This document shows, piece by piece, positions 10,454 through 60,358 of a stretch of DNA of 64,000 nt (positions are counted from its first letter, which is position 1; every line of letters begins with the position of its first letter). The notes under the pieces are model-generated. The model made no database searches. It was not told the DNA's origin and saw only the letters and a program-made list of their open reading frames with translations. This DNA is from an uncultured Gammaproteobacteria bacterium. Lineage in GTDB: Bacteria > Patescibacteriota > Patescibacteriia > UBA2196 > GWA2-42-15. Location: assembly GCA_964573135.1 (NCBI GenBank), contig CAZNIO010000001.1, positions 28,612 through 92,611 of the forward strand, read 5' to 3'. Both the position numbers and the translations under genes were made by a program.

Positions 10454-11308
10454 TTAAATATCTTCTTTTTTGGGTCGACCCTTCTTTTTCTTTGGTTCTT
10501 CCTCATTGTCTTCTTTCTCCTTTTCTTTATCAACCTCTTCTGTTTTTTCTTCTTCTTCCTTTTCTTCATCATCTACTACTGTTTCTTCTTGAGTCTCTTC
10601 TCCAGCCCCTTTATTTTGTAAAAAATTAACTTGATCTGATAAAATACCTACAGCTTCATCAAATGCTTCTTCTGGAGTTACTGAACCATCGGTTTCAACC
10701 ATCAAAATCAGTTTATCCCAGTTGGTCATTTCACCAACACGCACCCTGTCCACTTCGGCTGATACTTGAGTTATTGGCGTGAATATTGCATCCACTGCCA
10801 TATGTCCAATTGGCAATTTTTCTCCACTAAAACCCTCAACTGGTAAATATCCCCTGCCCTTTTCAACTGTAAACTCAACATCAAAATCTGCTGCCTCATC
10901 AGTTAAAGTGGCAATTACCATATCTTTATTAACTAAACTCACCTGTGAAGGTGCTTCAATATCACCTACTGTTACCTTACCTTCACCCGTCTTGTGTAAT
11001 TTCAATGCCAAAGGTTCGTCATGTGTGGCAGTTGCTAGTGGATCTACCTTAACCTTAATCTGTTTAATATTTAACATCACATCAACCATATCTTCCTTAA
11101 CATGCGGCAAACTGGAAAATTCATGATCAGTTCCCTTTATCTTAGCTGTAGTAATAGCTGATCCAGTAATTGAGGACAACAATACGCGCCGTAACATATT
11201 ACCAATAGTAATACCAAAACCTGGATACAAAGGCTCAACAATAAATTCACCCTTGTTGTCACTCTCAGCTTTATATTCAAATTTTTGTGGGACGGGGATC
11301 ATCTCCAT
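10454..11308 (-). CDS. rpoA: DNA-directed RNA polymerase alpha subunit. It has the N-terminal domain only; the alpha-CTD is replaced by an acidic tail plus an AT-hook.
   Basis: The alpha-NTD motifs (PLYPGFGITIGNMLRRVLLSSI...) are present. The last ~55 aa are E/K/D-rich and end KKKKGRPKKEDI. No alpha-CTD helix-hairpin-helix region is present. Confidence 0.85.
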   Translation of the reverse strand: MEMIPVPQKFEYKAESDNKGEFIVEPLYPGFGITIGNMLRRVLLSSITGSAITTAKIKGTDHEFSSLPHVKEDMVDVMLNIKQIKVKVDPLATATHDEPLALKLHKTGEGKVTVGDIEAPSQVSLVNKDMVIATLTDEAADFDVEFTVEKGRGYLPVEGFSGEKLPIGHMAVDAIFTPITQVSAEVDRVRVGEMTNWDKLILMVETDGSVTPEEAFDEAVGILSDQVNFLQNKGAGEETQEETVVDDEEKEEEEKTEEVDKEKEKEDNEEEPKKKKGRPKKEDI

Positions 11309-14587: not shown

Positions 14588-14713
14588 ATAACTACGGTTA
14601 TTATATCAATTTTAGCTTTAATGTCAAAAATTGGGGAATAATAAAAGAGATTCAATATTTACATGAATCTCTTTTATTTCGTAATTTTTTTGATCGCTTT
14701 TTTGTTTTAAAAA

Positions 14714-16201
14714 TTATTTCATCAATATCATTTTTTTTGTTTGAGCCAAACCGTTGGCATTCAGACAGTAAAAATACACACCAGAATACTGACCAACTGC
14801 ATTCCATTGAACTTTGTAAATACCAGCTACTTTTACACCGTCAACAAGTACCGCAACTTCCTGTCCAATTGAGTTATAAATTTTGAGAGAAACCTTTCCG
14901 GATTGCGGTACATAAAATTCAATGGCTGTTACCGGATTAAATGGATTTGGATAATTTTGCAGCAACGAAAATCCATTGGGTTGTCCGAGCATTTTTTCTT
15001 CATTAACATCAGTAGCACTTCCAGGCCATTCTGGCGGAGATGGTGGTAAAAACCCTGGATCACCAGGAGGCATATAATCTCCTGCCAAAACATAGCCCTC
15101 ATCATGTTTTATTTTCGTTAGCCCCAAAGACGGCTTTGTAAAAAGCAAAACGCATGAGTGAGACGCGTAAAACCACAATCCATGACCAGGTTTTGTTATA
15201 TCATCAGGACCAATCATTGTATAACCCTGATACCCATACTCAAACAAATATATTTGAAAGTCAGGTTCTCCGGGTGGCGGCAATATAAATAAAGATTGAC
15301 TCAATTCTGCAGAAAAACCAGGATAAGCTACCATGTGCCACTCTCCCTTTTCAAGGGAAACACTATCACTTTCGCTACCCAAAAGAATCAAGGCGCTGTT
15401 TCGCACATCTCCCTGCCAAAATGCCAACTCGCCATAATTCGCCATCCAAAACACATTATCTACTCTACTCGCATTGCGTGTAGGATTCCCAAACAGAATA
15501 TCAGATTGGCAATATTGACTATTTCCGCTTACATCCTCGTAAAAAACATATTCGCCAGCCATATTCGCAAAAACTTGTGTAGCAATAATATTTTCCGGTA
15601 AATATGTTGGAATACCCACCATGGTCCATCCATAACCATAGTATGACCTGAACCCTTCACGAATGGTGATTGTACAAATATGCAACATGGTAAAATTAGG
15701 CGACAACCAAACCGTAGAATTAGCCTGATCTCCAATAAAATATACCATGTTGTCACCAGTGTTTATCTCCACTCTTAATGTATCAAAATTTTGCCAATTA
15801 TTAGTCAAATCAAGCATAATTCTATACTCAATCTCAGTATTGGCCGGCTGGACAAATGGACTAAAATAAATCCTTCCGCTAACAAAATTAATACTGTCTA
15901 CGGTAGACACCACGCCGTACTGAGTGGCAATCCGCATACTATTAAGATCATCGCCAGTGGCAACCAATGAATTCAATTCATACGACAACACAGGGGACCA
16001 GCCCACACTACTAAATTCACTACTACTATCCGCCATTGTGTTTAGTTTAAAATAATTGAGCAGAGAAGTCTCTCCGGGCAAGTTAGTGTGATCGGTCCAC
16101 TCCTCAAAATCAATCCATGCCTCCTGCGCAAAAACCGGCATAGACAACAAAAAAACAACGAGCAACAAAACTACAATTTTATGTACCATAAAATCCTCCA
16201 A
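14714..16201 (-). CDS. Secreted protein with a type-A T9SS C-terminal sorting domain (Por_Secre_tail)
   Basis: N-terminal signal peptide (…LSMPVFAQEA). The C-terminal ~80 aa are LLQNYPNPFNPVTAIEFYVPQSGKVSLKIYNSIGQEVAVL...GVYFYCLNANGLAQTKKMILMK, the hallmark NYPNPFNP...TKKMxLLK pattern of type-A T9SS CTDs. Terminator-like hairpins flank it on both sides. Confidence 0.7.
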   Translation of the reverse strand: MEDFMVHKIVVLLLVVFLLSMPVFAQEAWIDFEEWTDHTNLPGETSLLNYFKLNTMADSSSEFSSVGWSPVLSYELNSLVATGDDLNSMRIATQYGVVSTVDSINFVSGRIYFSPFVQPANTEIEYRIMLDLTNNWQNFDTLRVEINTGDNMVYFIGDQANSTVWLSPNFTMLHICTITIREGFRSYYGYGWTMVGIPTYLPENIIATQVFANMAGEYVFYEDVSGNSQYCQSDILFGNPTRNASRVDNVFWMANYGELAFWQGDVRNSALILLGSESDSVSLEKGEWHMVAYPGFSAELSQSLFILPPPGEPDFQIYLFEYGYQGYTMIGPDDITKPGHGLWFYASHSCVLLFTKPSLGLTKIKHDEGYVLAGDYMPPGDPGFLPPSPPEWPGSATDVNEEKMLGQPNGFSLLQNYPNPFNPVTAIEFYVPQSGKVSLKIYNSIGQEVAVLVDGVKVAGIYKVQWNAVGQYSGVYFYCLNANGLAQTKKMILMK

Positions 16202-16393
16202 AAAAATATTTAGATTAAAATTTAACTCCCCTTTATGAGGAATTTTTTAAATTATTTATTTCTGCTTACAAAAAAGCGATCCAGCCACTTTACCATAAAT
16301 CCTCAAAAATGTCAAGAGTTAAACTAAAATTAGCTAAAAAAGAAAAAATACCCGTTATTTACGGGTATTTAAATATATACCTAAAATATACTA

Positions 16394-17341
16394 TCAATCC
16401 GTTTCATCCACTATCTCTATCTTTAAAACCTCTTCAATTACATCTTCTAAGGTTACCAATCCTTGAAATTCACCTTTCTTATCCTCAACCAATGCAATAT
16501 GCAACTTATTCTTTATAAAATCATTAAGAAGTTTATCTAATTTAGTACTAGTTTTTACATGCACTAATTTATGCTTATGGCATAATTTACCCACCTTTTC
16601 TTGACCCACATGACCCAATAAATCTTTTACATAGAGTATTCCAACTATATGGCTCTCGCTCTTATGGAATACCGGAATTCTTGTATGTCCCCTCTTTTTG
16701 ATTTTAGCTATTAATTTTTCATCAAACACCTCATCTTCGTTAATAGTATAAACTTTATCTCTTCCTGTCATTATCTCCCCTGCTTGCTTTTCTGAATAAG
16801 TTAAAGCTCCCCTAATAATCCTCTCTTCATCCCTATCTATATCACTCTCTTTAGAATCTTCGTGTTCTTCAATAATTTTTACCAATTCTTTCTTGGAATA
16901 AACTGTCGGCATCTCGGCTCCCAATGTTTTATCAAGTACCCAAGCAATTGGTGCACAGATTGGATAAAGGAGGACTATGAAAATTTTAACTATCCAAGCA
17001 GTTTTAGCTCCTACTTCAAGAGCATACTTAGCGAATGAAGCTTGTGGAATAATTTCACCAAAAATTACAATTAAACCAGTAGCCACAAGCCCGGCCATAA
17101 ACCCACTCGCAATATCTCCTAAAAATATAGCCAAAGCTGAATTAACTGCCACATTCCCTAAAAGCAAAGTACATAAAAGTAAATTTCCTTTTTTGCGCAC
17201 GCTATACACCTTCTTGGCTTTCTTGTCACCCAGCTCAATCTTTCTCTCAAGCTCGCCCTTACTCAAACTTAATAATCCCAAAGTTAATCCTGAAAAAAGA
17301 CCAGAAAAACCTACTAAAATTATTACAATTAAATATGTCAT
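16394..17341 (-). CDS. CNNM/CorC-type membrane protein (DUF21 + CBS pair), hemolysin-family
   Basis: N-terminal 4-TM DUF21-like region followed by tandem CBS-like regions. 315 aa. Confidence 0.6.
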   Translation of the reverse strand: MTYLIVIILVGFSGLFSGLTLGLLSLSKGELERKIELGDKKAKKVYSVRKKGNLLLCTLLLGNVAVNSALAIFLGDIASGFMAGLVATGLIVIFGEIIPQASFAKYALEVGAKTAWIVKIFIVLLYPICAPIAWVLDKTLGAEMPTVYSKKELVKIIEEHEDSKESDIDRDEERIIRGALTYSEKQAGEIMTGRDKVYTINEDEVFDEKLIAKIKKRGHTRIPVFHKSESHIVGILYVKDLLGHVGQEKVGKLCHKHKLVHVKTSTKLDKLLNDFIKNKLHIALVEDKKGEFQGLVTLEDVIEEVLKIEIVDETD

Positions 17342-17345
17342 ATAT

Positions 17346-19109
17346 TTATTCTAAAATTGCCTTTATTCTTCTCACTCCTGCTGAGCTTGACTCTTCCTTT
17401 AAAATCTTAAATGTTCCAAGTTCTGCAGTATTCTTAACATGCGGCCCCCCGCAAATTTCCTTAGAATAATCCCCCATAGAATATACCTTTACCTTTTCTC
17501 CATATTTATCTCCAAATATTCCCACTGCTCCTTGCTTCTTAGCTTCTTCCACACTCATCTCATCTTGTTTAATATCCAATCCTTTTTTAATCTTTGTATT
17601 AACAATATCTTCCACCTTCTTCTTCTCTTCATCACTCAATTTTTCACCATGTGAAAAATCAAAGCGTAGTCTTTCCCCGGTAATATTAGAGCCTCTCTGT
17701 TCCACACAATCCCCCAAAACTTCTCTCAAGGCAGCTAGCAGTAAATGCGTAGCTGTATGATATTTTATAGTATCCCCGCTTTCACCGCCTAATCCACCTT
17801 TAAATTTACCTGCCGTTGCACTGCGTGATAAATCCTGATGCTTTTTAAACTCATCTTCAAACCCTTGTTTATCTACCTTAAATCCCTGCTCTTTAGCCAA
17901 TTCTTCCGTTAATTCCCAAGGAAAACCATAAGTTTGGAATAAATCAAATACCAACTTTGAATTAAATTTTTTACCCTTAATTTTCTTTACTTCTTTATTA
18001 AATATTTTTAATCCTTGTTGCAAGGTTTTAGTAAACTTTTCTTCTTCTACTTCAAATAAAGATAATACCCGTTCCTTATTCTCCTCAAGCTCTTCATATA
18101 TCTCGCTCATCATCTCAATTGCCACTTGTGACACTTGGGCAGTAAAATTATCCTTTATACCAATCATTCTACCATGTCTAATAGCTCGACGTACTAATTT
18201 GCGTACCACATAACCCGCATCCACATTTGATGGCTCAATCAAAGCCTTGTCGGCCATGATAAAGGTAGCGGCCCGTACATGGTCAGATATAATTCTCATT
18301 GAGCGCTTTACCTCTTCACTCTCTTCATATTCCTTACCACTCAACTTCTCAATTTTTTTAATTATAGGTAAAAACAAGTCTGTCTTGTAATTATCATCCA
18401 ATCCATTCATAACGGCCAATAATCTTTCAAGCCCTGTACCATTATCAATATTCTTTTGTTTAGCCTCAACATATTTGCCTTTGCCTACTTTTTCATAACT
18501 CATCAGTACATCATTACCAATTTCAACCCATCTTGAATCTTCTGGATCAAATTCATCAGGTACTTTACTCTCATCCATCCAATAATGTGGCTCAGTATCT
18601 GGTCCGCACGGTCCGCCAGTGCCACTCGGCTCCCACCAGTTATCTTCCACATATTTAATCCTCTTTTCATCAATACCAATCTTTTGCCACAACTCATATG
18701 ACTCTTCATCCTTTTCCGCATCCTTATTACCCCCAAATACCGTAAAGGCTAATTTCTCTTTTTCTAATCCTAATTCTTTAGTTAAAAACTCATAGGTCAT
18801 TTGAATAGCTTCTTTTTTAAAATATTCTCCCAGCGACCAATGCCCCAGCATTTCAAAAAAAGTATGATGTGTCTTGTCCCCCACTTCATCAATGTCCCCT
18901 GTTCTAACGCACTTTTGTGCGTTAACTAATCTGACGCCACCAGGATGTTTTTCCCCGCACAAAAACGGCACCAAGGGCTGCATGCCTGCTGTTATAAAAA
19001 GAGTGGAAGGATCATTTTCCGGCAAAACAGAAGCTGACGGGATAATAGTATGACCCCGACTTGCAAAAAAATCTATATACTTTTGTCGCAATTCTTTAGA
19101 ACTAATCAT
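17346..19109 (-). CDS. alaS: Alanine--tRNA ligase, short form
   Basis: LRQKYIDFFASRGHTIIPSASVLPENDPSTLFITAGMQP aminoacylation-domain N-terminus. Editing-domain HTATHLL motif. The track ORF extends to 19169. The start is placed at the internal Met (MISSKELRQ…) to avoid a 52-nt overlap with the upstream toxin gene. At 588-607 aa it lacks the C-Ala domain. Confidence 0.8.
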   Translation of the reverse strand: MISSKELRQKYIDFFASRGHTIIPSASVLPENDPSTLFITAGMQPLVPFLCGEKHPGGVRLVNAQKCVRTGDIDEVGDKTHHTFFEMLGHWSLGEYFKKEAIQMTYEFLTKELGLEKEKLAFTVFGGNKDAEKDEESYELWQKIGIDEKRIKYVEDNWWEPSGTGGPCGPDTEPHYWMDESKVPDEFDPEDSRWVEIGNDVLMSYEKVGKGKYVEAKQKNIDNGTGLERLLAVMNGLDDNYKTDLFLPIIKKIEKLSGKEYEESEEVKRSMRIISDHVRAATFIMADKALIEPSNVDAGYVVRKLVRRAIRHGRMIGIKDNFTAQVSQVAIEMMSEIYEELEENKERVLSLFEVEEEKFTKTLQQGLKIFNKEVKKIKGKKFNSKLVFDLFQTYGFPWELTEELAKEQGFKVDKQGFEDEFKKHQDLSRSATAGKFKGGLGGESGDTIKYHTATHLLLAALREVLGDCVEQRGSNITGERLRFDFSHGEKLSDEEKKKVEDIVNTKIKKGLDIKQDEMSVEEAKKQGAVGIFGDKYGEKVKVYSMGDYSKEICGGPHVKNTAELGTFKILKEESSSAGVRRIKAILE

Positions 19110-19116
19110 AAAATAT

Positions 19117-19389
19117 TTACTTATAGACCTTATGGTCTCCGACATCCAAAAAGAGCACTTGATTATCATTTATAAATACAAACATAACTCGCAAACGCGG
19201 GGTAAGCGAAAACGACCACCGGTCTCTTAATTTTCCCTTAAGTTTATGTATCCTTAAAATTGGGTCAAAACAATTCACCCTAAAAATTTTTTCCTTCTTC
19301 CGGGCTATAACTCTCTCTATATTACTTAATTTCTTATACGACCTGACAAAATGAGATGCATAATCTATTTTTTTAATAGCTTTTTGCAT
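19117..19389 (-). CDS. Type II toxin, RelE/ParE superfamily
   Basis: 90 aa, basic. It lies 4 nt downstream of a Phd/YefM-like antitoxin on the same strand. The C-terminal region resembles RelE/ParE-family toxins (motif-level only). Confidence 0.55.
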   Translation of the reverse strand: MQKAIKKIDYASHFVRSYKKLSNIERVIARKKEKIFRVNCFDPILRIHKLKGKLRDRWSFSLTPRLRVMFVFINDNQVLFLDVGDHKVYK

Positions 19390-35060: not shown

Positions 35061-35108
35061 ATAATTTTATATTACCACTTTACCGCCCAAAATCAAGCAA
35101 AACAAAAA

Positions 35109-35474
35109 CCCAAGCAGGTTATAAGCCGGGTTCTGTCATATCCCGGCACAAAGCCGGGATCGGATGGTCATCTATCTAAACGAGCTACCATTTGTGCTCT
35201 TGCACCAGGCAGGGTTTACCGCGAGACTACGTCACCGTAATCAAGTGTGAGCTCTTACCTCACATTTTCACCCTTACCTCAAAAGAGGCGGTTTACTTTC
35301 TGTTGCACTTTCCCTGGGTTTTGAGATTGTCCACAAAAAATTTCTCGAGAGAACTTCTTAATGTATCTCTTATACCCGGTCACTTTCACGACTGCCATGA
35401 CTCCCGAAAAACGGGAGGGTGCCCGGACTTTCCTATCTAGCTAAAAGCTAGATTAACCATCGTACCTACTTGAG
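35109..35474 (-). ncRNA. rnpB: RNase P RNA, bacterial type A
   Basis: Read on the minus strand: GGAAAGUCCGGGCACCCUCCC (P4 5' strand), GGUAAGGGUGAAAAUGUGAGGUAAGAGCUCAC (P10/11/12 consensus) and UGACAGAACCCGGCUUA (P4 3' strand). P1 closes with CUCAAGUAGGU / AACCUGCUUGGG, including GU wobbles. There is a P3 hairpin AUCUAGC-UUUU-GCUAGAU. Track ORFs 34979..35179(+) and 35192..35440(+) lie inside it and are spurious. Confidence 0.85.
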
Positions 35475-35770: not shown

Positions 35771-36199
35771 CTATTTAGTAATAATACCCTTAGCTTCTTC
35801 CAAAAAATCCTTAGCTTTACCTAACAATTTTTTAGCGTTCATCTCGCTAAAATCACCATAATAATCCGCTGATTCTCTTAAGCGCTTTGCTTCAAGGAGT
35901 GCTTCTAAAAACAAAACACTTAATTCCCCAGATTTAACATATAATTCCCGTATTGATTGAGCCAGACAATAATGGCTCCTCTCTCTGTAATTCTTGTGAT
36001 AAATCAAAGCTCGAGCAGAATGAAACATTGAATAATACACTTGAACAATTGACCAGCGATAACTTGAATCAGCAAAACTCTGCTTGGCTGCCTTTAAGTC
36101 CTCTTGAGCTAACCTTAATTCTTTAGACGCTAATTCCTTGCCTCTAGAAAATTTTTTAATTTTACCCGCCTTAAGGCAGTCTTTAAAATTCTTAATCAT
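35771..36199 (-). CDS. HEPN-domain protein (toxin of a HEPN/MNT pair)
   Basis: 142 aa, all-alpha, with an Rx4-6H-like motif. Overlaps the upstream nucleotidyltransferase gene by 4 nt. Confidence 0.6.
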   Translation of the reverse strand: MIKNFKDCLKAGKIKKFSRGKELASKELRLAQEDLKAAKQSFADSSYRWSIVQVYYSMFHSARALIYHKNYRERSHYCLAQSIRELYVKSGELSVLFLEALLEAKRLRESADYYGDFSEMNAKKLLGKAKDFLEEAKGIITK

Positions 36200-36747
36200 A
36201 AATTGGAAAACAATTTAATACCTTGTTTTACTTCATTATAAAATTCAGGATCTTTAATTTCCATTTCGCTCCATTGACTCGGCGTTTTAATAACCGAATT
36301 AATCTTCATCTTTAGAGCATCTTTTTTAATAGCGCCCTCAATTCCGCCCACATTGTCGGTCAAAACAAACAGATCAACGTCGCTCTCAGCTGTTTGCTCA
36401 CCACGGGCAGCCGATCCAAATAGAATAATCTCATGACTTATATTCTTAATCTTATCAACAACGGGCAATAATTTTTTAGTCACTACTGCTGATTTAAACT
36501 GTCGAACAAAAGGATTGTTATCAACAATTTGATAAAATTTCATATTCCCTTTTTGTAAAACATCTACCAGCTTCTCCTTAACCAGAAACTTCAATGCGCC
36601 ATGCACTCCGCCCAAGCTTATCTTTAATTTAGAAGCGATTTCACTGCCAAAAAACTCTTCCTCTGGATGATCACCCAGGAAAATAATAATTTTTTCACGA
36701 TTCTTAGTTAATTTAATCATATTAATAAAAAATGAAAGTACTTTCAT
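36196..36747 (-). CDS. Minimal nucleotidyltransferase (MNT) with an N-terminal winged-helix; cognate antitoxin/regulator of the HEPN protein
   Basis: LFGSAARGEQTAESDVDLFVLTD (GS...DxD Pol-beta NTase motif). N-terminal wHTH-like segment. Confidence 0.65.
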   Translation of the reverse strand: MKVLSFFINMIKLTKNREKIIIFLGDHPEEEFFGSEIASKLKISLGGVHGALKFLVKEKLVDVLQKGNMKFYQIVDNNPFVRQFKSAVVTKKLLPVVDKIKNISHEIILFGSAARGEQTAESDVDLFVLTDNVGGIEGAIKKDALKMKINSVIKTPSQWSEMEIKDPEFYNEVKQGIKLFSNL

Positions 36748-39443: not shown

Positions 39444-40139
39444 TTATTTAACTGACAAATAACTTTTTAATAAAAATAGGGTTTCCTGCTTTAAATTTTC
39501 CCTTGCCCATTCTTTATCTTTATCACTCAAAACCTCGCCCAATCCCTGCAATATGTTCCGCTGATCAATCTTTTCTATAATCCTAATACTCTCCTCTAAT
39601 TGTTCTTTAATATTGTTACCTGTCCAAAATTTAAGAACATCCTCATCAATATCCCAACCATTTTTCGCGAAATAATAAAGGTCATAAATATCTCTCATTG
39701 CAATATTTTTACGCCCTGTCAAGGCTGATAATTTATTAGCAAAAAGTGATTCTTTTTTGGCACTAAGCATTGGAATTCCCAGATATTCCTTTGGCACATA
39801 TTCATTATTATTTTCACGAGTAGAAATTTCTATTTTAATATTATGATCTTCATCACCATAAGATAAAAGGAAAAATATTGTCCATCTTTCAATACATTTT
39901 TCTTTAATTATTCCGAACTCTTTTAATATATTTTCTATTTTTTTAAAAACTAACTCTTTATTCGGTTCACTCGCCTCAATTAAATCAAAATCCAAATCAA
40001 CCGAGAATCTGGGGAGATTATAAAAAAAGTAAGCACAAGTCCCACCCTTAAACCCTAGTAGTGATGAAATTTCAACATCACTATAAATACTTTTTAAAAT
40101 TTGCACCATTATTAATTGATGCTTTTCTCTATTTAGCAT
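39444..40139 (-). CDS. AbiEii/AbiGii-type nucleotidyltransferase toxin (type IV TA / abortive infection)
   Basis: FKGGTCAYFFYNLPRFSVDLDFD matches the GGTAL...RFSEDLDF signature of AbiEii (DUF1814). Confidence 0.65.
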   Translation of the reverse strand: MLNREKHQLIMVQILKSIYSDVEISSLLGFKGGTCAYFFYNLPRFSVDLDFDLIEASEPNKELVFKKIENILKEFGIIKEKCIERWTIFFLLSYGDEDHNIKIEISTRENNNEYVPKEYLGIPMLSAKKESLFANKLSALTGRKNIAMRDIYDLYYFAKNGWDIDEDVLKFWTGNNIKEQLEESIRIIEKIDQRNILQGLGEVLSDKDKEWARENLKQETLFLLKSYLSVK

Positions 40140-40698
40140 ATTTATAATATTTTTTTAATCTGGCCTCTAGCCGCTTGTTTTTATAAATTCTCGCCAATTG
40201 AGCACATTTTTCCCAGTCAATCTTTCTTAAATTATCAAAATGGTAATCTTTAAATAAATAAATCATATCAAGAAATGCACGCTCTTTAGTCGCTTGGCCG
40301 TACCCATTTTTATTCACAACCCCTTGGTTGTTCGCCAAAACTTCATTTTTTAATTTTCTAAATACAAATTTATGCCCCTCACACCTTAATGCCCTTGATA
40401 AATAACTTGCTACAAAAACAGCATTGTGGTGTTGAAATATAACCCCCTCTTCACGAAGTACGGTTTCAAAACTGATATAAGCTGGTGTATAGATACTTGT
40501 TGCGAATTCTTTGGGATTAAAATTTTTATCTTTACAGAATATTCCTTTCCTCAATCTAAATAAATTGCCCGTCTTTACATAATACGAAATTTTAGATTTC
40601 AAATTATCTTTATCTTTTTCTTTCCACAAAAAAGCTATATCCTTCGTCGTTAATACAGTTTTTTTAGATTTATAAAGCTTTAATAATGAATTATCCAC
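40129..40698 (-). CDS. AbiEi-type antitoxin / transcriptional regulator
   Basis: N-terminal ...KTGNLFRLRKGIF (AbiEi_4-like). Lies upstream of the AbiEii gene with an 11-nt overlap. Confidence 0.55.
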   Translation of the reverse strand: MDNSLLKLYKSKKTVLTTKDIAFLWKEKDKDNLKSKISYYVKTGNLFRLRKGIFCKDKNFNPKEFATSIYTPAYISFETVLREEGVIFQHHNAVFVASYLSRALRCEGHKFVFRKLKNEVLANNQGVVNKNGYGQATKERAFLDMIYLFKDYHFDNLRKIDWEKCAQLARIYKNKRLEARLKKYYKYAK

Positions 40699-41177: not shown

Positions 41178-43607
41178 TCAAGCCGCCACCCTATGAACAT
41201 GCTGACTCAATCCGCGTGTCTTTCCTCTGGGGCTTGAATACCCATCATTAGCCCGAACTCTTTCTCTTTTGCCTTTTAGCATCTCTCCGAGCTCATCTGC
41301 CAACCGCCTCACAGCTCCACCAGTTAAATCTTCAATATCTAAATTTTTAACATCAACTATGCCAGACGTAATTGTGCCAAACTTTTCACACTCTTGACTG
41401 CTTCTTCTGGGATCATTCCTCCTAATATATTCTTTAATATGATTATATAAACTATCGGTACTTGGCTCATCTTCACCCTGCTGAGCAAAAGATATTTCAT
41501 ACGACTTCAAATATTCATCAATTTCGACCTTAAGTTCTTTATTAATCTCCTGCATTATCCTAATCGCAGTACTTTCATCTATGCCAGAAAAAGTAATCAC
41601 AAATTCCTCTCCACCAGTCATCCTGACCAATTCCGGCTTACTATTATCAGACGAATAACTAATACCACATTTTTCTCTAATATATTCTTCATCATTCAAT
41701 TTATCTTGAATAAATTGTGTTGTTTTTAATAAAACAATATCACCCATAATATGCCCGCCAACATTATTTACTGCACGTAAATTATCAAAATCCAATGCAC
41801 ACACAGAAAAACTCTGTTTTTTCTCTAAGTTCTCCTCTTTCTTATTTTCCCTAATAACATTATTAATTTTAGGTACTATAATCTCATCGAAATAATAGCC
41901 ATTTTTAACGCTTGTCAAAGATTCAACATATAACCTTTGCTGGATATTAAAACACTCTTCCTTCAGGCGAATCAATAATTCATCTATTTTCTGTTTATCC
42001 GCGCCGCTCTTCTCAATATATCTCCTAGCCAATCTTTCCGCTAATCTTATCTTTCTTTTATATACGTCATTAATTAATACCGCCTCTCCCTCTTCATCTC
42101 TAGCTACTAACTCTGACTGTCTTTTTGTTTCTTTAAAAATCTCCTGAAAATCAGCCACAAAACGCGGATCGCCCTTTATCCCCTCTCTTGCTCCTTCAAT
42201 TTCATTGCTGGGTATTTCCTTATCCAGATTATCGGGATCAAAATAGCCTACGCTATTCTTCTGATATATTTTCTGCTCTTCTTGTATTACATTGGCTTGA
42301 TTTAAAAACCTAGCTGCTCTTTCTCGATAGAGACCATCTATCAGGCTGTATAGCTGGTCTCTATCTTCTTCAAGCAACCCTTTGCCCACCTTCTCCTCAC
42401 CATATTTCAATATCTTACGTCGAAAATCATAATAGGTTATTTTTTCATTAAATACAATTCCATCGTCCTGCATTTGCGTACAATCAGAAAAAACATCATG
42501 GAGTATTACTTTTGAAACAAATTCTTTTTCACCATTCACCCGCTGATATATAAGCGACAAATCTCTTTCATTGAGATAACTCTTATCTTTACCACCCTTA
42601 AAATCCACCGTTAATGCTCCAAGTGTTATCGTGCCATTCTCCAATTTAAATCTCCCCCTATATTCACCTAAAATTTGAAGAACCTCATCGTCTTGCATGC
42701 TATCAATTCGCTGTTTGGCTTGGGGATGAGGCGGGTCAAGCAATACTTTCAACATCTCAGCAATCTTTCGCTCATCAATAATACCAGCGTCAAATAACTC
42801 TTTAACGGCCTTTTGTGCTTCTTCATTATTCTTAAATTGATCCTCAAGGGCGTCAGCCCTTTCCTCAAGAGTTATCCAATTAAGCTCATTTCTAACATCA
42901 AAATCTTCTTCAACTTCAGTATCGCGAAGTTTTGCGTCATCTTCATACATTTGATTAAATTCATCAAACATCTTATTTACTGCAATTTTAACTTGTTCTC
43001 TTACGCTATTAGCGTAAGAGCTGGTAGTCCCTTCACCCCCGAATTCTTTAGGATAAGTTGCCATGCTCAATTCTTCCCCGCCTACCCTCATACTATTCTC
43101 TGCATTAGCCAGCAGCTTATCAGCCACCACTAAAAGCTCCCAATTGCCAAACTCATGTCCAACCGCGTTATTCGAAGACTGGAAATAGTCAATATCTGTA
43201 TTAATAAAACTCAATCCATTTTCCTCTTCAGCGTCTTTTATCATACGCGCAGTAGAATAAAGACCGGCTTCACGCGTGTAAAGTCGAGTCAACTTATTAT
43301 CCCTATCCGCTACTTTATTCAATTTCTCTAATAGTGAAGTCAAAAGAACCTCACCCTGGTTATCACCATCTTCCAAATTCCAATTCTCAAAAACTTCCTT
43401 TATATCATTCTCCCCAGGTTCTTCAAGCCCATATTTAATTGCTATTTCTTTTCTTAAATTATCCACTTTTTGATTAATCTTTGTTTTCAATTCCTGGCTA
43501 ATTTCCATAGAAGTTTCGCGAGCACTAAAACCACACTTCTCTAATTGGCCTAGAGTTATAGGTTTCTCTTCATCAATTATCTCTTTTCTTTCTCTTATTC
43601 CTTCCAT
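41178..43607 (-). CDS. Large soluble protein with two GGDEF-like (nucleotide cyclase / palm) domains
   Basis: C-terminal domain: ALDFDNLRAVNNVGGHIMGDIVL...RMTGGEEFVITF (DxD...N..GH..GD...R.GGEEF). N-terminal degenerate copy: TDIDYFQSSNNAVGHEFGN...RVGGEELSMA. No TM segments and no recognisable sensor domain. 809 aa. Confidence 0.6.
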   Translation of the reverse strand: MEGIRERKEIIDEEKPITLGQLEKCGFSARETSMEISQELKTKINQKVDNLRKEIAIKYGLEEPGENDIKEVFENWNLEDGDNQGEVLLTSLLEKLNKVADRDNKLTRLYTREAGLYSTARMIKDAEEENGLSFINTDIDYFQSSNNAVGHEFGNWELLVVADKLLANAENSMRVGGEELSMATYPKEFGGEGTTSSYANSVREQVKIAVNKMFDEFNQMYEDDAKLRDTEVEEDFDVRNELNWITLEERADALEDQFKNNEEAQKAVKELFDAGIIDERKIAEMLKVLLDPPHPQAKQRIDSMQDDEVLQILGEYRGRFKLENGTITLGALTVDFKGGKDKSYLNERDLSLIYQRVNGEKEFVSKVILHDVFSDCTQMQDDGIVFNEKITYYDFRRKILKYGEEKVGKGLLEEDRDQLYSLIDGLYRERAARFLNQANVIQEEQKIYQKNSVGYFDPDNLDKEIPSNEIEGAREGIKGDPRFVADFQEIFKETKRQSELVARDEEGEAVLINDVYKRKIRLAERLARRYIEKSGADKQKIDELLIRLKEECFNIQQRLYVESLTSVKNGYYFDEIIVPKINNVIRENKKEENLEKKQSFSVCALDFDNLRAVNNVGGHIMGDIVLLKTTQFIQDKLNDEEYIREKCGISYSSDNSKPELVRMTGGEEFVITFSGIDESTAIRIMQEINKELKVEIDEYLKSYEISFAQQGEDEPSTDSLYNHIKEYIRRNDPRRSSQECEKFGTITSGIVDVKNLDIEDLTGGAVRRLADELGEMLKGKRERVRANDGYSSPRGKTRGLSQHVHRVAA

Positions 43608-43846: not shown

Positions 43847-46800
43847 TTATTCAAACAACCCCTTAATATCATCCCATGTCAATTTGGTAAACAAATCCTT
43901 ACTCTCACCAACAAGACGATCAAAAAGAAGTTTCTTTTTTTCTTGAAGTTTTACAATCTTTTCTTCAATGGTTCCTTTGGTTATCAAGCGATAAACATTT
44001 ACCGAATTCTTTTGGCCAATTCGGTGAGTACGATCTATGGCTTGATTTTCAACACTTGGATTCCACCAGGGATCAAAAATAATTACAGTGTCAGCTGAAG
44101 TTAAATTTATGCCTGTTCCACCAGCTTTTAAACTAATTAAAAAAACCTTTAGGTTGTTATTTTCATTAAAATCATCAATCAACTCCTGCCTGTTCCTTGT
44201 TTTACCAGATAAATAGTGATAATTAATCTTCTTTTTATCCAATTCCTTACCCAAAATATCAAGCATTTTCGTGAACTGGCTAAATACTAAAACTTTTCTT
44301 TTGTTTTCAATAATTTCGTCAATTAGCTCCAAAAACATATTTAATTTTGATGATTCGTATTTTGTATAATCATCATCTTTTAACAACAGAACAGGATGAT
44401 TGCAAACCTGTCTTAATTTTGTCAATCCAGCTAAAATATGAATTCGTGATTTATTAAAGCCTTTTGTTTTTACAGTTTCAAAAATTTCTGATTTTACATT
44501 TGCTAAAATTTCCTGATAAAGAATATTCTGTCCTTTGCCTAAATGACAGTGGCTCATTTGCTCCACTTTTGGCGGAAGTTCTTTTAGCACCTCGGATTTT
44601 GTACGGCGCAACATAAAACATTCAATTTTTTTACGCAAATTATCAAGAGCAAGCTTGTTATTGTGTTGCATAATCGGTTTTTCGAACTTCTTGGCAAACA
44701 ACCGATATGATCCCAAAAATCCCGGCATTAAAAAATCAAAAATAGACCAAATTTCTGATACGCTATTCTCAAGCGGCGTGCCAGTCAAAGCCAAACGATA
44801 ATCAGCATTAACTTTTTTTACTACTTGCGCATTCTTTGTGATATGATTTTTAATAAACTGTGCCTCATCTAAAACACAATAATTAAATTTAATTTTTTGT
44901 TTTTCATAAATTGCACTATCTTTTTTTATGGTTGCATAACCCGTAATGATTAAATCATAATTTTTTATTTTTTTTATTATCTTCTCTCGCTCTAATGGAT
45001 TTCCATCAATCACAATCGTTTTTAATTTTGGAACAAACTTTTCTGCTTCATTCTGCCAATTATAAAGCAATGTTTTTGGGCAAATGACAATTGACGGATT
45101 GCCCTTAACTTTTTCTTTTTCCAATAAAACCAAGGCCTGCAAAGTTTTACCAAGACCCATATCATCAGCCAAAATTCCGGCAAATCTATATTTGCGCAAA
45201 AAATAAAGCCAGTCAACTCCCTCCTTCTGATAATCACGCATAATTCTGTCAAGCTTTGCGGGCAACTTAATTTTTTTAACCGACTTGCCGTTTTGTGCTT
45301 CTTTTATAAAATTATTAAAACTTTTCTGTACCTTGGCATTATAATATTCAGATTTTGTAAAAACATTTTCAAGTTCCGGTGCATGGTATAATTTACCTTC
45401 AAATCCACCCTTTTCCCGTGCGTAAAAACTTTCAAGCATTAAAACAAACCTCTCCAGCTCTTCTAAATTTGTAATTTTAAGCATCCGTCCGTCATCCATT
45501 TTTATAAATTCTTTTTTATCCTCAACATATTTTCTCAAGTCTTCCAGCCTAATTTTTTCGTCCCCACAATAGCAACTAACATCAAAACCAAGCCAATCAT
45601 TTTCAGCATTCAAGTCCACATCAAAATCAGCCTTAAAATTTGCTACAGTAAAACTAAATTTATCACCAATGAATTCAATTTTATAATTTTTCTTATTAGC
45701 GAATTTTTCCAAATTGTCCCAATGCTTTGTAAAATATTTGAATATCTCTTTTTCTCCTTCCAGCTTACACTCAACTCTTTTTTTAAATCCATAATCTTTG
45801 TGAAAAAAATAAAAATGCTTATAAATCTCTATTTCTTTTTTCTCATCCACCAATCCATAACTAATATTCTTTTTACTTATGCCAATAACATATTTATCCA
45901 ATCCAGTCCTGCTAAAAGTATCCATACCCATATTGCGGTAACGGTTGACTGACTGACCCACATTTATTTTTTTAAACCCATAATCAACGCCTGCCTGAAT
46001 TTCCAACAAATCTTTTTTACTATCATAATCCACCACTACACAAGGTTTTGCTTCTGTAAATTCTTCAATTTCAAAATTTTGCGTTAAATCAGTTTGAAAA
46101 TCAAAACATTTATGACAATCTTCAATAATTTTATTTAATTCAAGAATCTCTTCCTGCTCAAGCATTGTTTTAAAATATCTTTCATTTCCAAAATGATAAC
46201 CCGTTCTAATTAAATCTATGCGTGACAATATTTTAACCAATGGATTAGTCAACTGATAAAAACCGATAGATTTGTCTTCAATCTTTATAAAGCCATCGCT
46301 GTAAAATAAAAATACCAATGGATCAACTTTTTTGTACTTGTCATCAAGTTCAAAAACAAATTCCTTCTTCAGTCTTTCGTTAAACTCATATTTTACATCC
46401 TCCAATTTTAACAAAATTTTAATTTTGTTGTCATCGGCTACCGGAGAAAATGTCAACAAATTATCAGCAGTGTGCCTGTTCCAATATATTTTCAACTTTG
46501 AATTTCGCAAAATATTAAATAATTTTTTATAATCAATATCGCCGTGATAAACAAAAGATAATTTTCGTAAAAACTTAAACAATTCTTTATGTGGCCCATC
46601 CAAATCATATTGCCTGAGCATCACGCTGGGATCCGTCTCGGATCCGCTATTTTTTTTCACTCGAATATCGGAAAGAGTATTTTTCCCATATCCATCTTCT
46701 AAAATAACATAATAGCTATCCGGGTTAAATCGTTTCTTTTTTATTGGGCTACATTGCGATGTCTCTAAACCATTACGAACATCCACCCCTTTGGCGGCCA

Positions 46801-47374
46801 AAGCTTTGATTAATCCATCTACGACCCCGTCAGGCGCATCTCCAATATCAAGCATACTTTTAAATTCATCCAAAAGTTCTTCTTTGGTTCTATTCTGTCT
46901 ATAATCATCTATTTCTTCAAACTCGCCTTCAACAATATCATCATCAAATTTAACTTTTCTCAATACTTTATCTCCTCCGTAATTTTCAGCTTTAACTTGG
47001 CTATTAATCCAATGAATCAAATCATTTCTTATTGTAGCTCTTCTTAAAACAGAATTATCCATAAACTCTATATAAAAATCTATAAACTCCAATCCAACAG
47101 CTGCGATATGCTTGCAAGCGTCGCCATAAGGACAATCACAATCCATTTTTCTAAAACTATTTTTTTTAAAATCAAAAAACAGACTAGTTGAATAATCATC
47201 ACTGCCTGCAACTTCACTGCGAATCTCAATTTCACTGTCAATCTCGGATGGAAAAACTTTTAAACTCAAAACATTGCCTGAATGATAATATCCGACTCCG
47301 CGACTAAATATATGAGATTCAAAATTTAATTTTAAATTGTTTTTTAACGACTTTTCACTAATTATATGAAACAT
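43847..47374 (-). CDS. SNF2-family helicase with an N-terminal SWIM zinc finger
   Basis: SWIM: CDCPYGDACKHIAAVGL. SNF2 ATPase motifs: GLGKT (motif I), DEAQFIKN (motif II), LTGTPLENS, and the helicase-C GGTGINLTSADTVIIFDPWWNP...QAIDRTHRIGQ. 1175 aa. Confidence 0.8.
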   Translation of the reverse strand: MFHIISEKSLKNNLKLNFESHIFSRGVGYYHSGNVLSLKVFPSEIDSEIEIRSEVAGSDDYSTSLFFDFKKNSFRKMDCDCPYGDACKHIAAVGLEFIDFYIEFMDNSVLRRATIRNDLIHWINSQVKAENYGGDKVLRKVKFDDDIVEGEFEEIDDYRQNRTKEELLDEFKSMLDIGDAPDGVVDGLIKALAAKGVDVRNGLETSQCSPIKKKRFNPDSYYVILEDGYGKNTLSDIRVKKNSGSETDPSVMLRQYDLDGPHKELFKFLRKLSFVYHGDIDYKKLFNILRNSKLKIYWNRHTADNLLTFSPVADDNKIKILLKLEDVKYEFNERLKKEFVFELDDKYKKVDPLVFLFYSDGFIKIEDKSIGFYQLTNPLVKILSRIDLIRTGYHFGNERYFKTMLEQEEILELNKIIEDCHKCFDFQTDLTQNFEIEEFTEAKPCVVVDYDSKKDLLEIQAGVDYGFKKINVGQSVNRYRNMGMDTFSRTGLDKYVIGISKKNISYGLVDEKKEIEIYKHFYFFHKDYGFKKRVECKLEGEKEIFKYFTKHWDNLEKFANKKNYKIEFIGDKFSFTVANFKADFDVDLNAENDWLGFDVSCYCGDEKIRLEDLRKYVEDKKEFIKMDDGRMLKITNLEELERFVLMLESFYAREKGGFEGKLYHAPELENVFTKSEYYNAKVQKSFNNFIKEAQNGKSVKKIKLPAKLDRIMRDYQKEGVDWLYFLRKYRFAGILADDMGLGKTLQALVLLEKEKVKGNPSIVICPKTLLYNWQNEAEKFVPKLKTIVIDGNPLEREKIIKKIKNYDLIITGYATIKKDSAIYEKQKIKFNYCVLDEAQFIKNHITKNAQVVKKVNADYRLALTGTPLENSVSEIWSIFDFLMPGFLGSYRLFAKKFEKPIMQHNNKLALDNLRKKIECFMLRRTKSEVLKELPPKVEQMSHCHLGKGQNILYQEILANVKSEIFETVKTKGFNKSRIHILAGLTKLRQVCNHPVLLLKDDDYTKYESSKLNMFLELIDEIIENKRKVLVFSQFTKMLDILGKELDKKKINYHYLSGKTRNRQELIDDFNENNNLKVFLISLKAGGTGINLTSADTVIIFDPWWNPSVENQAIDRTHRIGQKNSVNVYRLITKGTIEEKIVKLQEKKKLLFDRLVGESKDLFTKLTWDDIKGLFE

Positions 47375-58589: not shown

Positions 58590-59066
58590 TTACCTACTAA
58601 TTATCTGAATAATATCATCCTCATCATATTGATTTAATCCCACCCCATTTGGTCCATACGACCCCACTACCGCCCTATCAACCCCGTCTACCTCATAATC
58701 ACTATCAAAAAAATAGTTATTTCCCCATGGATCCGCAGTTAAAATTTGGATATATGGACCTCTCCAATTGGGAAAACTGCCATCAGTTCTTTTTATACCC
58801 GCCACAGGCAAAAACAAATTTACAATCTCGTTATTATCACACGACCCACTACATGCCACATATGGCGTTTGATGACCCGGCCATTGCCTAGAATCTAATG
58901 CCAAAGCATCAATTGCTTTAGCAATTGTCGCTACATCAGCTTCAGCCTTTGTTTTTTTGGCATATTTTTTAGCATAATGACTACCACCCATGACTATGGT
59001 TGCTAAAAGAGCAATAATACCAATGACTACAAGTATTTCAATTAGAGTAAAACCTTTTTTCTCCAT
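58590..59066 (-). CDS. Type IV pilin / pseudopilin (prepilin-type N-terminal methylation domain)
   Basis: MEKKGFTLIEILVVIGIIALLATIV: class III signal, G-F-T-L-I-E. 158 aa. Confidence 0.8.
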   Translation of the reverse strand: MEKKGFTLIEILVVIGIIALLATIVMGGSHYAKKYAKKTKAEADVATIAKAIDALALDSRQWPGHQTPYVACSGSCDNNEIVNLFLPVAGIKRTDGSFPNWRGPYIQILTADPWGNNYFFDSDYEVDGVDRAVVGSYGPNGVGLNQYDEDDIIQIISR

Positions 59067-60190: not shown

Positions 60191-60358
60191 TTAAGTAATC
60201 TTCGCTCTTGATCCTTTTAAAAACTCTTTACTAAACTGATGGATATCAAACTTTTTATGTCGCTTCATATAACTTTTTGTAAAATCATTTCTAAATCGAC
60301 GTATTTTATCCACTACGCTTCTGTTCTCATTTACATTTTGTATATTATTTTCCTTCAT
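60191..60358 (-). CDS. Small basic ORF (55 aa) overlapping the 3' end of the PIN gene; possible partner (antitoxin?) of the PIN protein
   Basis: Hand translation: MKENNIQNVNENRSVVDKIRRFRNDFTKSYMKRHKKFDIHQFSKEFLKGSRAKIT. Not in the ORF track because it is under 60 aa. Its start lies 11 nt upstream of the PIN stop. Confidence 0.25.
   Translation of the reverse strand: MKENNIQNVNENRSVVDKIRRFRNDFTKSYMKRHKKFDIHQFSKEFLKGSRAKIT

What the first reader, a model, noticed from the sequence alone, without database searches (positions are those of the whole stretch)
14714..16201. Canonical type-A T9SS C-terminal sorting domain on a secreted protein in a genome window with no other Bacteroidota-type features
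The last ~80 aa (…LLQNYPNPFNPVTAIEFYVPQ…GVYFYCLNANGLAQTKKMILMK) are a textbook Por_Secre_tail (TIGR04183-like) domain. Its cognate secretion machinery (PorK/L/M/N, SprA, PorU/V) is restricted mainly to the FCB group. The gene is an isolated transcription unit flanked by hairpin terminators (14640-14690 and 16345-16375). Its codon composition looks slightly GC-richer than its neighbours. Either the organism encodes a T9SS-like export route, or this is a horizontally acquired gene whose CTD is non-functional or repurposed.
Basis: partly seen in the sequence, partly recalled or inferred. Interest (0 to 1): 0.55.

Follow-up and report, generated by a model that had tools for sequence, protein, structure and literature searches.

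The report
T9SS sorting domain in a patescibacterium
A secreted protein of an ultra-small bacterium (Patescibacteria/CPR), a group thought to lack an outer membrane, ends in a textbook export tag for an outer-membrane secretion machine known only from the Bacteroidota superphylum, so the tag was probably borrowed from other bacteria and now serves another purpose.

Summary
The ORF at 14714-16201 (-) is real, although its true start is the ATG at 16189 (491 aa). Its last ~80 residues pass the curated cut-offs of TIGR04183 (38.7 bits, cut-off 23) and PF18962 (29, cut-off 27). It is a monocistronic unit with its own promoter-like site, RBS and flanking hairpins.

The new information is the host. 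AlaRS and RpoA place the contig in Patescibacteria, near Kuenenbacteria, a group proposed to lack an outer membrane. About 81 kb of the contig shows no T9SS or outer-membrane gene and no second CTD.

The gene is neither an assembly artefact nor a recent import. It recurs in independent assemblies and its GC and GC3 are native. Its 387-aa N-terminal region has one relative cluster among 1.84 billion representatives, apparently also patescibacterial. Between the two proteins the CTD is 54% identical and the N-domain 29%, so the CTD is maintained.

Best reading: a Sec-secreted protein whose FCB-derived CTD is retained as a repurposed C-terminal β-sandwich, not as a signal for the cell's own T9SS. 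Published structures show the CTD motifs specify fold, so their retention does not prove T9SS use. A speculative alternative is docking onto a host's PorV. The whole-genome T9SS check could not be run.

The parts
16346..16370 (-). Intrinsic-terminator-like hairpin (10-bp stem, 5-nt loop, T-run) that ends the upstream AlaRS-CNNM/CBS unit and insulates the CTD gene
16287..16315 (-). Sigma-70-like promoter site TTGACA-17-TAAAGT with a TG extension (10 of 12 matches)
   Evidence: This is a consensus match only; the region's total count of such sites is not above the shuffle expectation.
16268..16281 (-). 5'-UTR arm of a perfect 14-nt inverted repeat that brackets the coding sequence (ACAAAAAAGCGATC on the + strand)
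   Evidence: 8 of 2000 shuffles reach 14 nt, and it is the longest 5'/3' flank pairing among the 42 window genes.
16195..16199 (-). Shine-Dalgarno sequence GGAGG, 5 nt upstream of the ATG
   Evidence: read directly from the sequence
16127..16189 (-). Start codon ATG (16189) and Sec-type signal peptide MVHKIVVLLLVVFLLSMPVFA, with a predicted signal peptidase I site VFA|QE and no lipobox cysteine
   Evidence: It is the only hydrophobic segment in the protein. The cleavage site is inferred from the sequence pattern.
15074..16126 (-). Orphan N-terminal region (~350 aa) that is β-rich, acidic and rich in aromatic residues, with no Pfam, NCBIfam or PDB relative
   Evidence: The AF2 model is poor.
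14972..15073 (-). Proline-rich linker (MPPGDPGFLPPSPPEWPGSATDVNEEKMLGQPNG)
   Evidence: pLDDT is below 50 in the CTD model.
14717..14971 (-). Type A T9SS C-terminal sorting domain (Por_Secre_tail) with the motifs NYPNPFNP and SGVYFY and the C-terminus QTKKMILMK
14714..14716 (-). Stop codon TAA
14692..14705 (-). 3'-UTR arm of the 14-nt inverted repeat (GATCGCTTTTTTGT on the + strand)
14640..14678 (-). AT-rich hairpin with perfect 15-nt arms and a 9-nt loop; its 3' arm runs into TTTTATTATT, making it the likely terminator of the CTD gene
   Evidence: I8. It fails the scan's G+C criterion.

Best explanation
The gene encodes a Sec-exported, acidic, β-rich extracellular protein of about 52 kDa in a Kuenenbacteria-like member of Patescibacteria (CPR). 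It is transcribed as a single-gene unit. The protein is a chimera of three parts: an N-terminal region found only in two apparently patescibacterial lineages, a proline-rich linker, and a genuine type A T9SS C-terminal domain. The CTD most likely came from an FCB-group bacterium (Ignavibacteria/KSB1/Kryptonia type) by domain-level transfer. Transfer happened long enough ago for the gene to acquire native composition. The cell very probably has neither an outer membrane nor a T9SS, so the CTD cannot act as an export signal for the cell's own machinery; the signal peptide alone takes the protein out. The CTD is kept under purifying selection as a folded C-terminal β-sandwich with a new role. The most likely role is an extracellular binding or anchoring module for the variable N-terminal part. 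Shown here: the gene structure, CTD family membership, the host's phylum, native composition, the orphan N-domain, and stronger conservation of the CTD than of the N-domain. Inferred: absence of a T9SS in the whole genome, the direction of transfer, and the new role.
For: CTD membership: above the curated cut-offs of TIGR04183 and PF18962. All 13 invariant family columns are kept. P0002 keeps 26 of 31 columns that are >=80% conserved. The C-terminal basic residues are kept. The CTD model is a confident β-sandwich (pLDDT 80.6). T9SS CTDs (PorZ, mirolase, 8glk_D, 8gl8_D) are among the best fold matches. The family profile's only PDB hit is the substrate CTD 8glj_D. Host: AlaRS is 72% and RpoA 64% identical to Kuenenbacteria, and the other named hits are Patescibacteria. 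Not an artefact: the gene has identical flanks in several independent assemblies, with 0-1 mismatches. No T9SS or outer-membrane genes, and no second CTD, in 81 kb of this contig or 43 kb of relatives. Native composition. The N-domain has one relative cluster among 1.84e9 representatives, on a 722-kb contig that also appears to carry patescibacterial AlaRS and RpoA. CTD 54% against N-domain 29% identity. Literature: T9SS is an outer-membrane system of FCB bacteria. [quoted passage not shown] The CTD motifs specify fold and do not contact the translocon (PMC10994853), so fold constraint alone explains their retention.
Against: Only about half of one contig was inspected, so absence of a T9SS from the whole genome is inferred from phylum-level knowledge and not shown. 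The family has just two members, so 'purifying selection' rests on a single pairwise comparison. The N-domain could simply be evolving fast. The near-invariant C-terminal lysine, which matters for T9SS transport, is also retained; a pure fold-module role does not obviously require that. No function could be assigned to the N-domain. The FCB-type comparison set was chosen by similarity to the target, which inflates its apparent closeness to the consensus.
Confidence: 0.55

Rival explanations
1. The CTD acts on another cell's T9SS. Patescibacteria live attached to host cells. The CTD, displayed on a secreted or surface protein, would bind the T9SS carrier PorV or the PorU/PorZ attachment complex exposed on the outer membrane of an FCB-group host. 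This would serve as a docking or interference device.
For: The CTD remains a fully canonical type A domain, including the C-terminal lysine that is functionally important for T9SS transport. It is the most conserved part of the protein. Substrate CTDs bind the extracellular loops of PorV through a plastic, shape-based and mainly hydrophobic pocket (PMC10994853), so binding from outside the host is sterically conceivable. The N-domain is fast-evolving, as expected for a host-interaction surface. Cultivated Patescibacteria are obligate episymbionts (abstract of PMC11623550).
Against: There is no evidence on the host's identity. The conserved motifs are explained by fold alone. In the solved complexes the CTD is bound to PorV inside the SprA pore, and free surface PorV binding an external CTD has not been shown. 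Only two genomes carry the protein, so it is not a general patescibacterial strategy.
Confidence: 0.17
2. The protein is ordinary T9SS cargo, because the organism encodes a T9SS (or a reduced version) elsewhere in its genome.
For: The protein has the full cargo architecture: signal peptide, passenger, linker and type A CTD. Only about 81 kb of the genome could be inspected.
Against: [quoted passage not shown] T9SS is described only in the FCB superphylum. No T9SS or outer-membrane gene and no second CTD protein appear in 81 kb, whereas a Bacteroidetes locus shows three CTDs in 12 kb. No paper in the library links T9SS with CPR genomes.
Confidence: 0.03
3. The CTD is a functionless relic of a transferred gene and is slowly decaying.
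For: No cognate machinery is expected. The family is tiny, with two clusters. The Pfam score (29 bits) is at the low end for the family.
Against: The reading frame is intact in both lineages. The CTD is 54% identical between them against 29% for the rest, and AlaRS of the two genomes is only 61% identical. All invariant family positions are kept. The model is a confident fold. The gene has a good RBS and its own promoter-like site and terminator in both genomes.
Confidence: 0.1
4. The gene is an assembly or binning artefact: an FCB gene wrongly joined to a patescibacterial contig.
For: None beyond the taxonomic oddity.
Against: The gene sits between AlaRS-CNNM and the infA-S13-S11-S4-rpoA block, with patescibacterial genes on both sides. 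The same junctions occur in six contigs from several samples, with 0-1 mismatches. Composition is native. The homologue is likewise embedded in contigs from ENA, NCBI and Logan assemblies.
Confidence: 0.02

Closest known systems
Type A T9SS cargo proteins of the FCB superphylum (CTD family TIGR04183 / Pfam PF18962 Por_Secre_tail)
   Same: N-terminal Sec signal peptide, passenger region, Pro-rich linker and an ~80-aa CTD at the extreme C-terminus. The CTD scores above the curated cut-offs, carries the NYPNPFNP and GVYFY motifs and the basic C-terminus, and is predicted to be a β-sandwich. It is 57-66% identical to CTDs of Ignavibacteria-, KSB1- and Kryptonia-type proteins.
   Different: The host is a patescibacterium, not an FCB bacterium. 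No T9SS or outer-membrane genes and no other cargo were seen nearby. The passenger domain has no relative in FCB bacteria. Export across an outer membrane is therefore not expected to be its role.
Type B T9SS CTD (CHU_C, PF13585 / TIGR04131)
   Same: A C-terminal β-sandwich sorting domain of the same secretion system, with a weak overlapping hit (18.4 bits, E 0.0024).
   Different: The hit is below the cut-off of 27. The type A model scores much better, so the protein is not a type B member.
FlgD Ig-like domain (PF13860)
   Same: There is a weak hit over 36 residues (15.1 bits), and FlgD appears far down the fold-match list (7bhq_B, rank 49).
   Different: The hit is below the cut-off of 27 and covers under half the domain. 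The full-length match is to Por_Secre_tail.
Usual patescibacterial surface proteins (membrane-anchored giant adhesin-like proteins and type IV pilins)
   Same: Sec-dependent extracellular proteins of an episymbiont. The same window encodes a 1526-aa VWA/SdrD_B/LTD/SpaA protein with a hydrophobic C-terminal anchor and a GspG-type pilin.
   Different: Those proteins are held by transmembrane segments or assembled into pili. The CTD protein has no TM anchor, lipobox or LPxTG motif; it ends instead in a domain borrowed from a diderm secretion system.

Membership tests
Type A T9SS C-terminal domain (TIGR04183 / PF18962), membership by domain | Profile score at or above the curated cut-off | tested here: met
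   TIGR04183 38.7 bits against 23; PF18962 29 bits against 27; near full-length model coverage (2-70 of 72 and 2-74 of 75). The homologue P0002 scores 33.7 bits.
Type A T9SS C-terminal domain (TIGR04183 / PF18962), membership by domain | Located at the extreme C-terminus of a protein that has an N-terminal Sec signal peptide | tested here: met
   The domain ends 3 residues before the stop codon. The only hydrophobic segment is residues 1-21, with a VFA|QE site. The signal peptide is inferred from the sequence pattern, not from a dedicated predictor.
Type A T9SS C-terminal domain (TIGR04183 / PF18962), membership by domain | Conserved fold-specifying motifs and the near-invariant lysine close to the C-terminus | tested here: met
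   All 13 invariant columns of a 59-sequence alignment are present. The target keeps 31 of 31 and P0002 26 of 31 columns that are >=80% conserved (the set is biased towards the target). K at -6 and -1. The lysine's importance is from PMC10994853.
Type A T9SS C-terminal domain (TIGR04183 / PF18962), membership by domain | Seven-stranded β-sandwich fold | tested here: inconclusive
   The AF2 model of the CTD has pLDDT 80.6 and forms a β-sandwich with six long strands plus short N-terminal bridges. T9SS CTDs are among the top Foldseek hits, but no hit has E <= 1e-3 and generic Ig domains score about the same. The fold is compatible but not discriminating.
T9SS cargo (functional membership: exported by a T9SS of the same cell) | The genome encodes the T9SS core (PorK/L/M/N or GldK/L/M/N, SprA/Sov, PorV, PorU) | tested here: inconclusive
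   None appear among the precomputed Pfam calls over contig positions 18544-99627 (81 kb). The rest of the 162-kb contig and of the genome could not be read with these tools.
T9SS cargo (functional membership: exported by a T9SS of the same cell) | Diderm host belonging to the FCB superphylum | tested here: not met
   AlaRS and RpoA place the contig in Patescibacteria near Kuenenbacteria. An outer membrane is proposed to be absent in this phylum (PMC12102498). The envelope itself is not testable here.
T9SS cargo (functional membership: exported by a T9SS of the same cell) | One of many CTD-bearing proteins in the genome | tested here: inconclusive
   It is the only CTD hit in six-frame ORFs of 81 kb of this contig. 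The homologue is the only one in 43 kb of relatives. A Bacteroidetes locus has three in 12 kb. The whole genome was not available.
FlgD Ig-like domain (PF13860) | Profile score at or above the gathering cut-off | tested here: not met
   15.1 bits against 27, covering 36 residues only.

The most novel reading that the evidence does not exclude
A patescibacterial episymbiont has captured the type A T9SS sorting domain of its FCB-group host and displays it on a secreted protein as a molecular mimic. The CTD would bind the host's surface-exposed T9SS carrier PorV, or be processed by the PorU/PorZ attachment complex. That would tether the symbiont's effector, or the symbiont itself, to the host outer membrane, or jam host secretion. 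It would be the first case of a secretion-system targeting signal used between cells, and it would give a sequence-level clue to host range in CPR bacteria.
Probability: 0.15. Interest if true: 0.85.

Novelty: new variant of a known kind. Interest (0 to 1): 0.5.

Why it matters
T9SS sorting domains are routinely read as evidence that a protein is T9SS cargo. NCBI already auto-names the homologue 'T9SS type A sorting domain-containing protein'. Here a canonical, conserved type A CTD sits in a lineage that by current knowledge has neither an outer membrane nor a T9SS. This shows the domain can persist outside its system, so such annotations should not be taken as functional predictions. It is also a clean case of domain-level capture by a reduced-genome episymbiont. 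If the CTD still engages T9SS components, it would point to FCB bacteria as hosts and to a new kind of symbiont-host interface. That idea can be tested with simple binding and reporter-secretion assays in Flavobacterium johnsoniae.

Tried and rejected
1. Full-length AF2 model from the 3-sequence family alignment: mean pLDDT 38, unusable, so no fold search was run on the N-domain.
2. N-domain against Pfam at E up to 10, split in two halves: nothing (one search was a frame error). Against NCBIfam: nothing for the N-domain, and against PDB with the family profile: only CTD hits.
3. The marginal representative hit P0242 is only a ~45-residue similarity to a repeated Ig-like segment of an 889-aa CTD protein. 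I did not treat it as homology of the N-domain.
4. Exact look-up of the 495-aa TTG-start product and of P0002: not on record. The ATG-start product and P0121 were found instead.
5. Viral-contig scan with the N-domain: no match, so there is no sign of a phage origin.
6. The genome-contig scan with the whole protein returned only CTD matches in a Bacteroidetes and an Ignavibacterium MAG.
7. Recent whole-gene transfer: rejected on composition and on the absence of FCB relatives of the N-domain.
8. Motif retention as proof of T9SS recognition: rejected after reading PMC10994853.
9. Provenance of the closest CTD (P0012): it comes from an unrelated JGI sample, which is uninformative about a donor.
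10. Literature searches linking T9SS or Por_Secre_tail with CPR/Patescibacteria: nothing relevant.
11. Paralogues of the N-domain on the held contig stretches: none.
Full report

Yes. The ORF listing gives a 495-aa ORF at 14714..16201 on the minus strand. Reading the upstream sequence shows GGAGG at 16199-16195, followed 5 nt later by the ATG at 16189. The TTG at 16201 is part of the ribosome-binding site. The real product is therefore 491 aa (MVHKIVV...), identical to the JGI gene call P0001.

The C-terminal 76 residues match TIGR04183 at 38.7 bits (curated cut-off 23). They match Pfam PF18962 at 29 bits (cut-off 27), over essentially the whole model. The type B CTD model (CHU_C, 18.4 bits) and FlgD_ig (15.1 bits) stay below their cut-offs.

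The gene is a self-contained transcription unit on the minus strand:
- A terminator-like hairpin at 16370-16346 closes the upstream AlaRS-CNNM/CBS unit.
- A TTGACA-17-TAAAGT site with a TG extension lies at 16315-16287.
- After the stop codon there is a perfect 15-nt-arm AT-rich hairpin at 14678-14640.
- A perfect TTGACA-16-TATAAT site at 14627-14600 then serves the next gene.

The 'slightly GC-richer' remark is numerically true: GC is 0.399 against a mean of 0.360 for 42 window genes. It is unremarkable, however. The z-scores are +1.3 for GC and +0.95 for GC3, and the excess is mostly at second codon positions.

**2. What organism is this?**

The window carries a bacterial class A RNase P RNA but no rRNA or tRNA. 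It is identical, apart from one mismatch, to part of JGI metagenome contig Ga0075122_10000010 (162 kb). The gene and its flanks recur in six contigs from several samples. Misassembly is therefore excluded for practical purposes.

Two independent housekeeping markers place the contig in Patescibacteria (CPR):
- AlaRS: the best named relatives are Candidatus Kuenenbacteria (72% identity). The other named hits carry Patescibacteria-group, Portnoy-, Pace- and Falkowbacteria labels or plain 'bacterium'.
- RpoA: the best named relatives are again Kuenenbacteria (64%, 53%, 51%), then Patescibacteria-group and Komeilibacteria entries.
- NCBI taxonomy places Kuenenbacteria in the Parcubacteria group of the Patescibacteria group.

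Gene content fits this placement. There are many glycosyltransferases, MurJ, MreB, an F-type ATPase and several toxin-antitoxin pairs. There is also a GspG-type pilin and a 1526-aa VWA/SdrD_B/LTD/SpaA surface protein with a hydrophobic C-terminus.

**3. Is there a T9SS for this cargo-like protein?**

T9SS moves cargo across the outer membrane and is described for the FCB superphylum (PMC8754138 and PMC12398890). [quoted passage not shown]

Precomputed Pfam calls cover contig positions 18544-99627, which is the whole window plus about 8 to 10 kb beyond each end. They show no T9SS component and no outer-membrane biogenesis gene.

I built a CTD HMM from 118 hits and ran it over all six-frame ORFs. 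It finds only this one CTD in those 81 kb, and only the homologue in 43 kb of related patescibacterial contigs. A Bacteroidetes comparison locus has three CTDs in 12 kb.

The rest of the genome was out of reach, so whole-genome absence is inferred and not shown. No paper in the library connects T9SS or Por_Secre_tail with CPR bacteria.

**4. Where does the gene come from?**

The full-length protein has a single homologue cluster: P0002/P0121, 34-36% identical, auto-named 'T9SS type A sorting domain-containing protein [bacterium]' by NCBI. I searched the N-terminal 387 residues alone, with HMMER, against 1.84 billion cluster representatives. The search returned only the protein itself, that cluster (E 1.4e-44), and one marginal short hit. 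That hit is a ~45-residue resemblance to an Ig-like repeat. Pfam, NCBIfam and PDB give nothing for the N-domain.

P0121's longest contig is 722,062 bp. That is the same length as the longest contig of AlaRS hit P0155 (61% identical to ours) and of RpoA hit P0310 (47%). The second carrier is therefore also a patescibacterium. This is an inference from the matching contig length.

The two genes are not syntenic. In the relative, AlaRS is followed directly by the 403-aa membrane protein and infA-L36-S13-S11-S4-rpoA. Its CTD gene lies between def and glycosyltransferase genes. In our window, a CNNM gene and the CTD gene sit between AlaRS and the 404-aa gene.

In contrast to the N-domain, the CTD has thousands of relatives. 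Its identity to CTDs of proteins named Ignavibacteria, KSB1, Kryptonium and the like is 57-66%. The simplest history is domain-level capture of an FCB CTD by a patescibacterial gene. The resulting gene was then inherited or exchanged within Patescibacteria, long enough ago for its composition to become native.

**5. Is the CTD maintained?**

Between the two carriers the N-domain is 29% identical, the linker 28% and the CTD 54%. AlaRS of the two genomes is 61% identical.

Family positions are well kept:
- Both proteins keep all 13 invariant columns of a 59-sequence CTD alignment.
- The target keeps 31 of 31 columns that are at least 80% conserved, and P0002 keeps 26 of 31. The comparison set was selected by similarity to the target, so P0002 is the fairer test.
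- Both end in the family's basic C-terminus: QTKKMILMK in the target and QTKRLVLTK in P0002.

AF2 with a deep alignment folds the CTD confidently (pLDDT 80.6, about 90 over the sandwich). Foldseek against the PDB puts PorZ, the mirolase CTD and the substrate CTDs of the SprA translocon complexes among the best matches. Generic Ig domains score about the same, so fold alone does not discriminate. The family profile's only PDB sequence hit is the substrate CTD 8glj_D (E 0.005).

An unused domain would not be expected to stay this intact. The 'non-functional relic' reading is therefore disfavoured.

**6. How does it most likely work?**

The protein has one hydrophobic segment, the signal peptide with a VFA|QE site. 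It has no other TM segment, no lipobox and no LPxTG motif. The mature form is about 52 kDa, with pI 4.4 and 14% aromatic residues. In a single-membrane cell the Sec system alone puts it outside, so the CTD cannot be acting as an outer-membrane export signal for the cell's own machinery.

The translocon-substrate structures settle how to read the conservation (PMC10994853). The conserved type A motifs specify the fold and do not contact SprA or PorV. Recognition relies on a plastic, mainly hydrophobic pocket. Only a near-invariant C-terminal lysine has a functional role.

Motif retention in the patescibacterial CTDs is therefore explained by selection for a folded β-sandwich. My best explanation (confidence 0.55) is a repurposed C-terminal binding or anchoring module attached to a fast-evolving, lineage-specific N-terminal part.

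The same paper states that substrates bind the extracellular loops of PorV. The conserved lysine is kept here as well. This leaves room for a more interesting reading (about 0.15-0.17): the CTD engages T9SS surface components of an FCB host of this presumably episymbiotic bacterium. Nothing here tests that.

**7. Comparison with what is known, and novelty**

By domain criteria this is a member of the type A CTD family. By functional criteria (a T9SS in the same cell, a diderm FCB host) it is not shown to be T9SS cargo, and the host criterion is not met. It is best described as a new variant of a known kind: a canonical T9SS sorting domain conserved in a lineage outside the system's known range, fused to an orphan passenger.

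It is worth a follow-up. The evidence rests on two genomes, and the decisive whole-genome search could not be run here.

**8. Side observations**

- A perfect 14-nt inverted repeat brackets the coding sequence inside the transcription unit, at 14692-14705 and 16268-16281. Only 8 of 2000 shuffles reach that length. It is the longest such flank pairing among the 42 window genes. It could be pairing between the mRNA's 5' and 3' UTRs, or a cassette boundary.
- GC skew is strongly negative across 1-61 kb, with nearly all genes on the minus strand. It flattens where genes switch to the plus strand at about 61.4 kb.
- The RpoA is the short form without an αCTD Pfam hit and ends in a highly charged tail.

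Noticed in passing
window 14692-14705 and 16268-16281: A perfect 14-nt inverted repeat (GATCGCTTTTTTGT / ACAAAAAAGCGATC) brackets the CTD gene's coding sequence. One arm lies between the promoter-like site and the RBS, the other between the stop codon and the terminator hairpin. 8 of 2000 shuffles reach 14 nt, and it is the longest 5'/3' flank pairing among the 42 window genes (the next is 11). It may be mRNA 5'-3' UTR pairing or a cassette boundary. The homologue's locus has only 10 nt.
   Followed up: partly
window 16394-19169 compared with L011 10001-13099: Synteny break. In a related patescibacterium, AlaRS is followed directly by the 403-aa membrane protein and infA-L36-S13-S11-S4-rpoA-L17-L13-S9. 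In the window, a CNNM/CBS gene and the CTD gene are inserted between them. The window's infA-S13 stretch has no called L36 gene.
   Followed up: partly
window 1-64000 (switch near 61.4 kb); L014: GC skew is strongly negative (-0.1 to -0.45) over 1-61 kb, with almost all genes on the minus strand. It becomes roughly zero where the ATP synthase operon starts on the plus strand, but does not turn clearly positive over the next 10 kb. So this is a strand-switch point and not a clean origin or terminus signature.
   Followed up: partly
window 49483-54063 (-): A 1526-aa surface protein with VWA, three SdrD_B, Lamin-tail, SpaA/CarboxypepD_reg and DUF4215 domains and a hydrophobic C-terminal anchor. 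It is followed by three proteins with no Pfam hit (320, 414 and 175 aa), a GspG-type pilin (58590-59066) and a CAP-domain protein (59068-59994). This is a likely host-interaction or adhesion gene cluster.
   Followed up: no
window 10454-11308 (-): RpoA is only 284 aa and has no αCTD (PF03118) hit, like its patescibacterial relatives. It ends in a highly charged Glu/Lys-rich tail (…EEKEEEEKTEEVDKEKEKEDNEEEPKKKKGRPKKEDI).
   Followed up: no
window 35106-35473 (-): A complete bacterial class A RNase P RNA (165 bits, full model length). It is the only Rfam hit in the 64 kb, and there are no tRNA genes in the window.
   Followed up: no
window 36196-36747, 39444-40698, 60345-60827; L001 6515-7073; L014 10948-11515: A high density of toxin-antitoxin or abortive-infection-type modules for a small genome: nucleotidyltransferase/HEPN pairs, AbiEii with a partner, a PIN protein, PhdYeFM with a small partner, and PhdYeFM-ParE inserted inside the ATP synthase operon.
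   Followed up: no
window 41178-43607 (-) and 43847-47374 (-): An 809-aa protein with only a weak, partial GGDEF match, next to an 1175-aa SNF2-family helicase. Both lie in a lower-GC stretch (0.28-0.32 around 44-49 kb) that may be a more recently acquired island.
   Followed up: no
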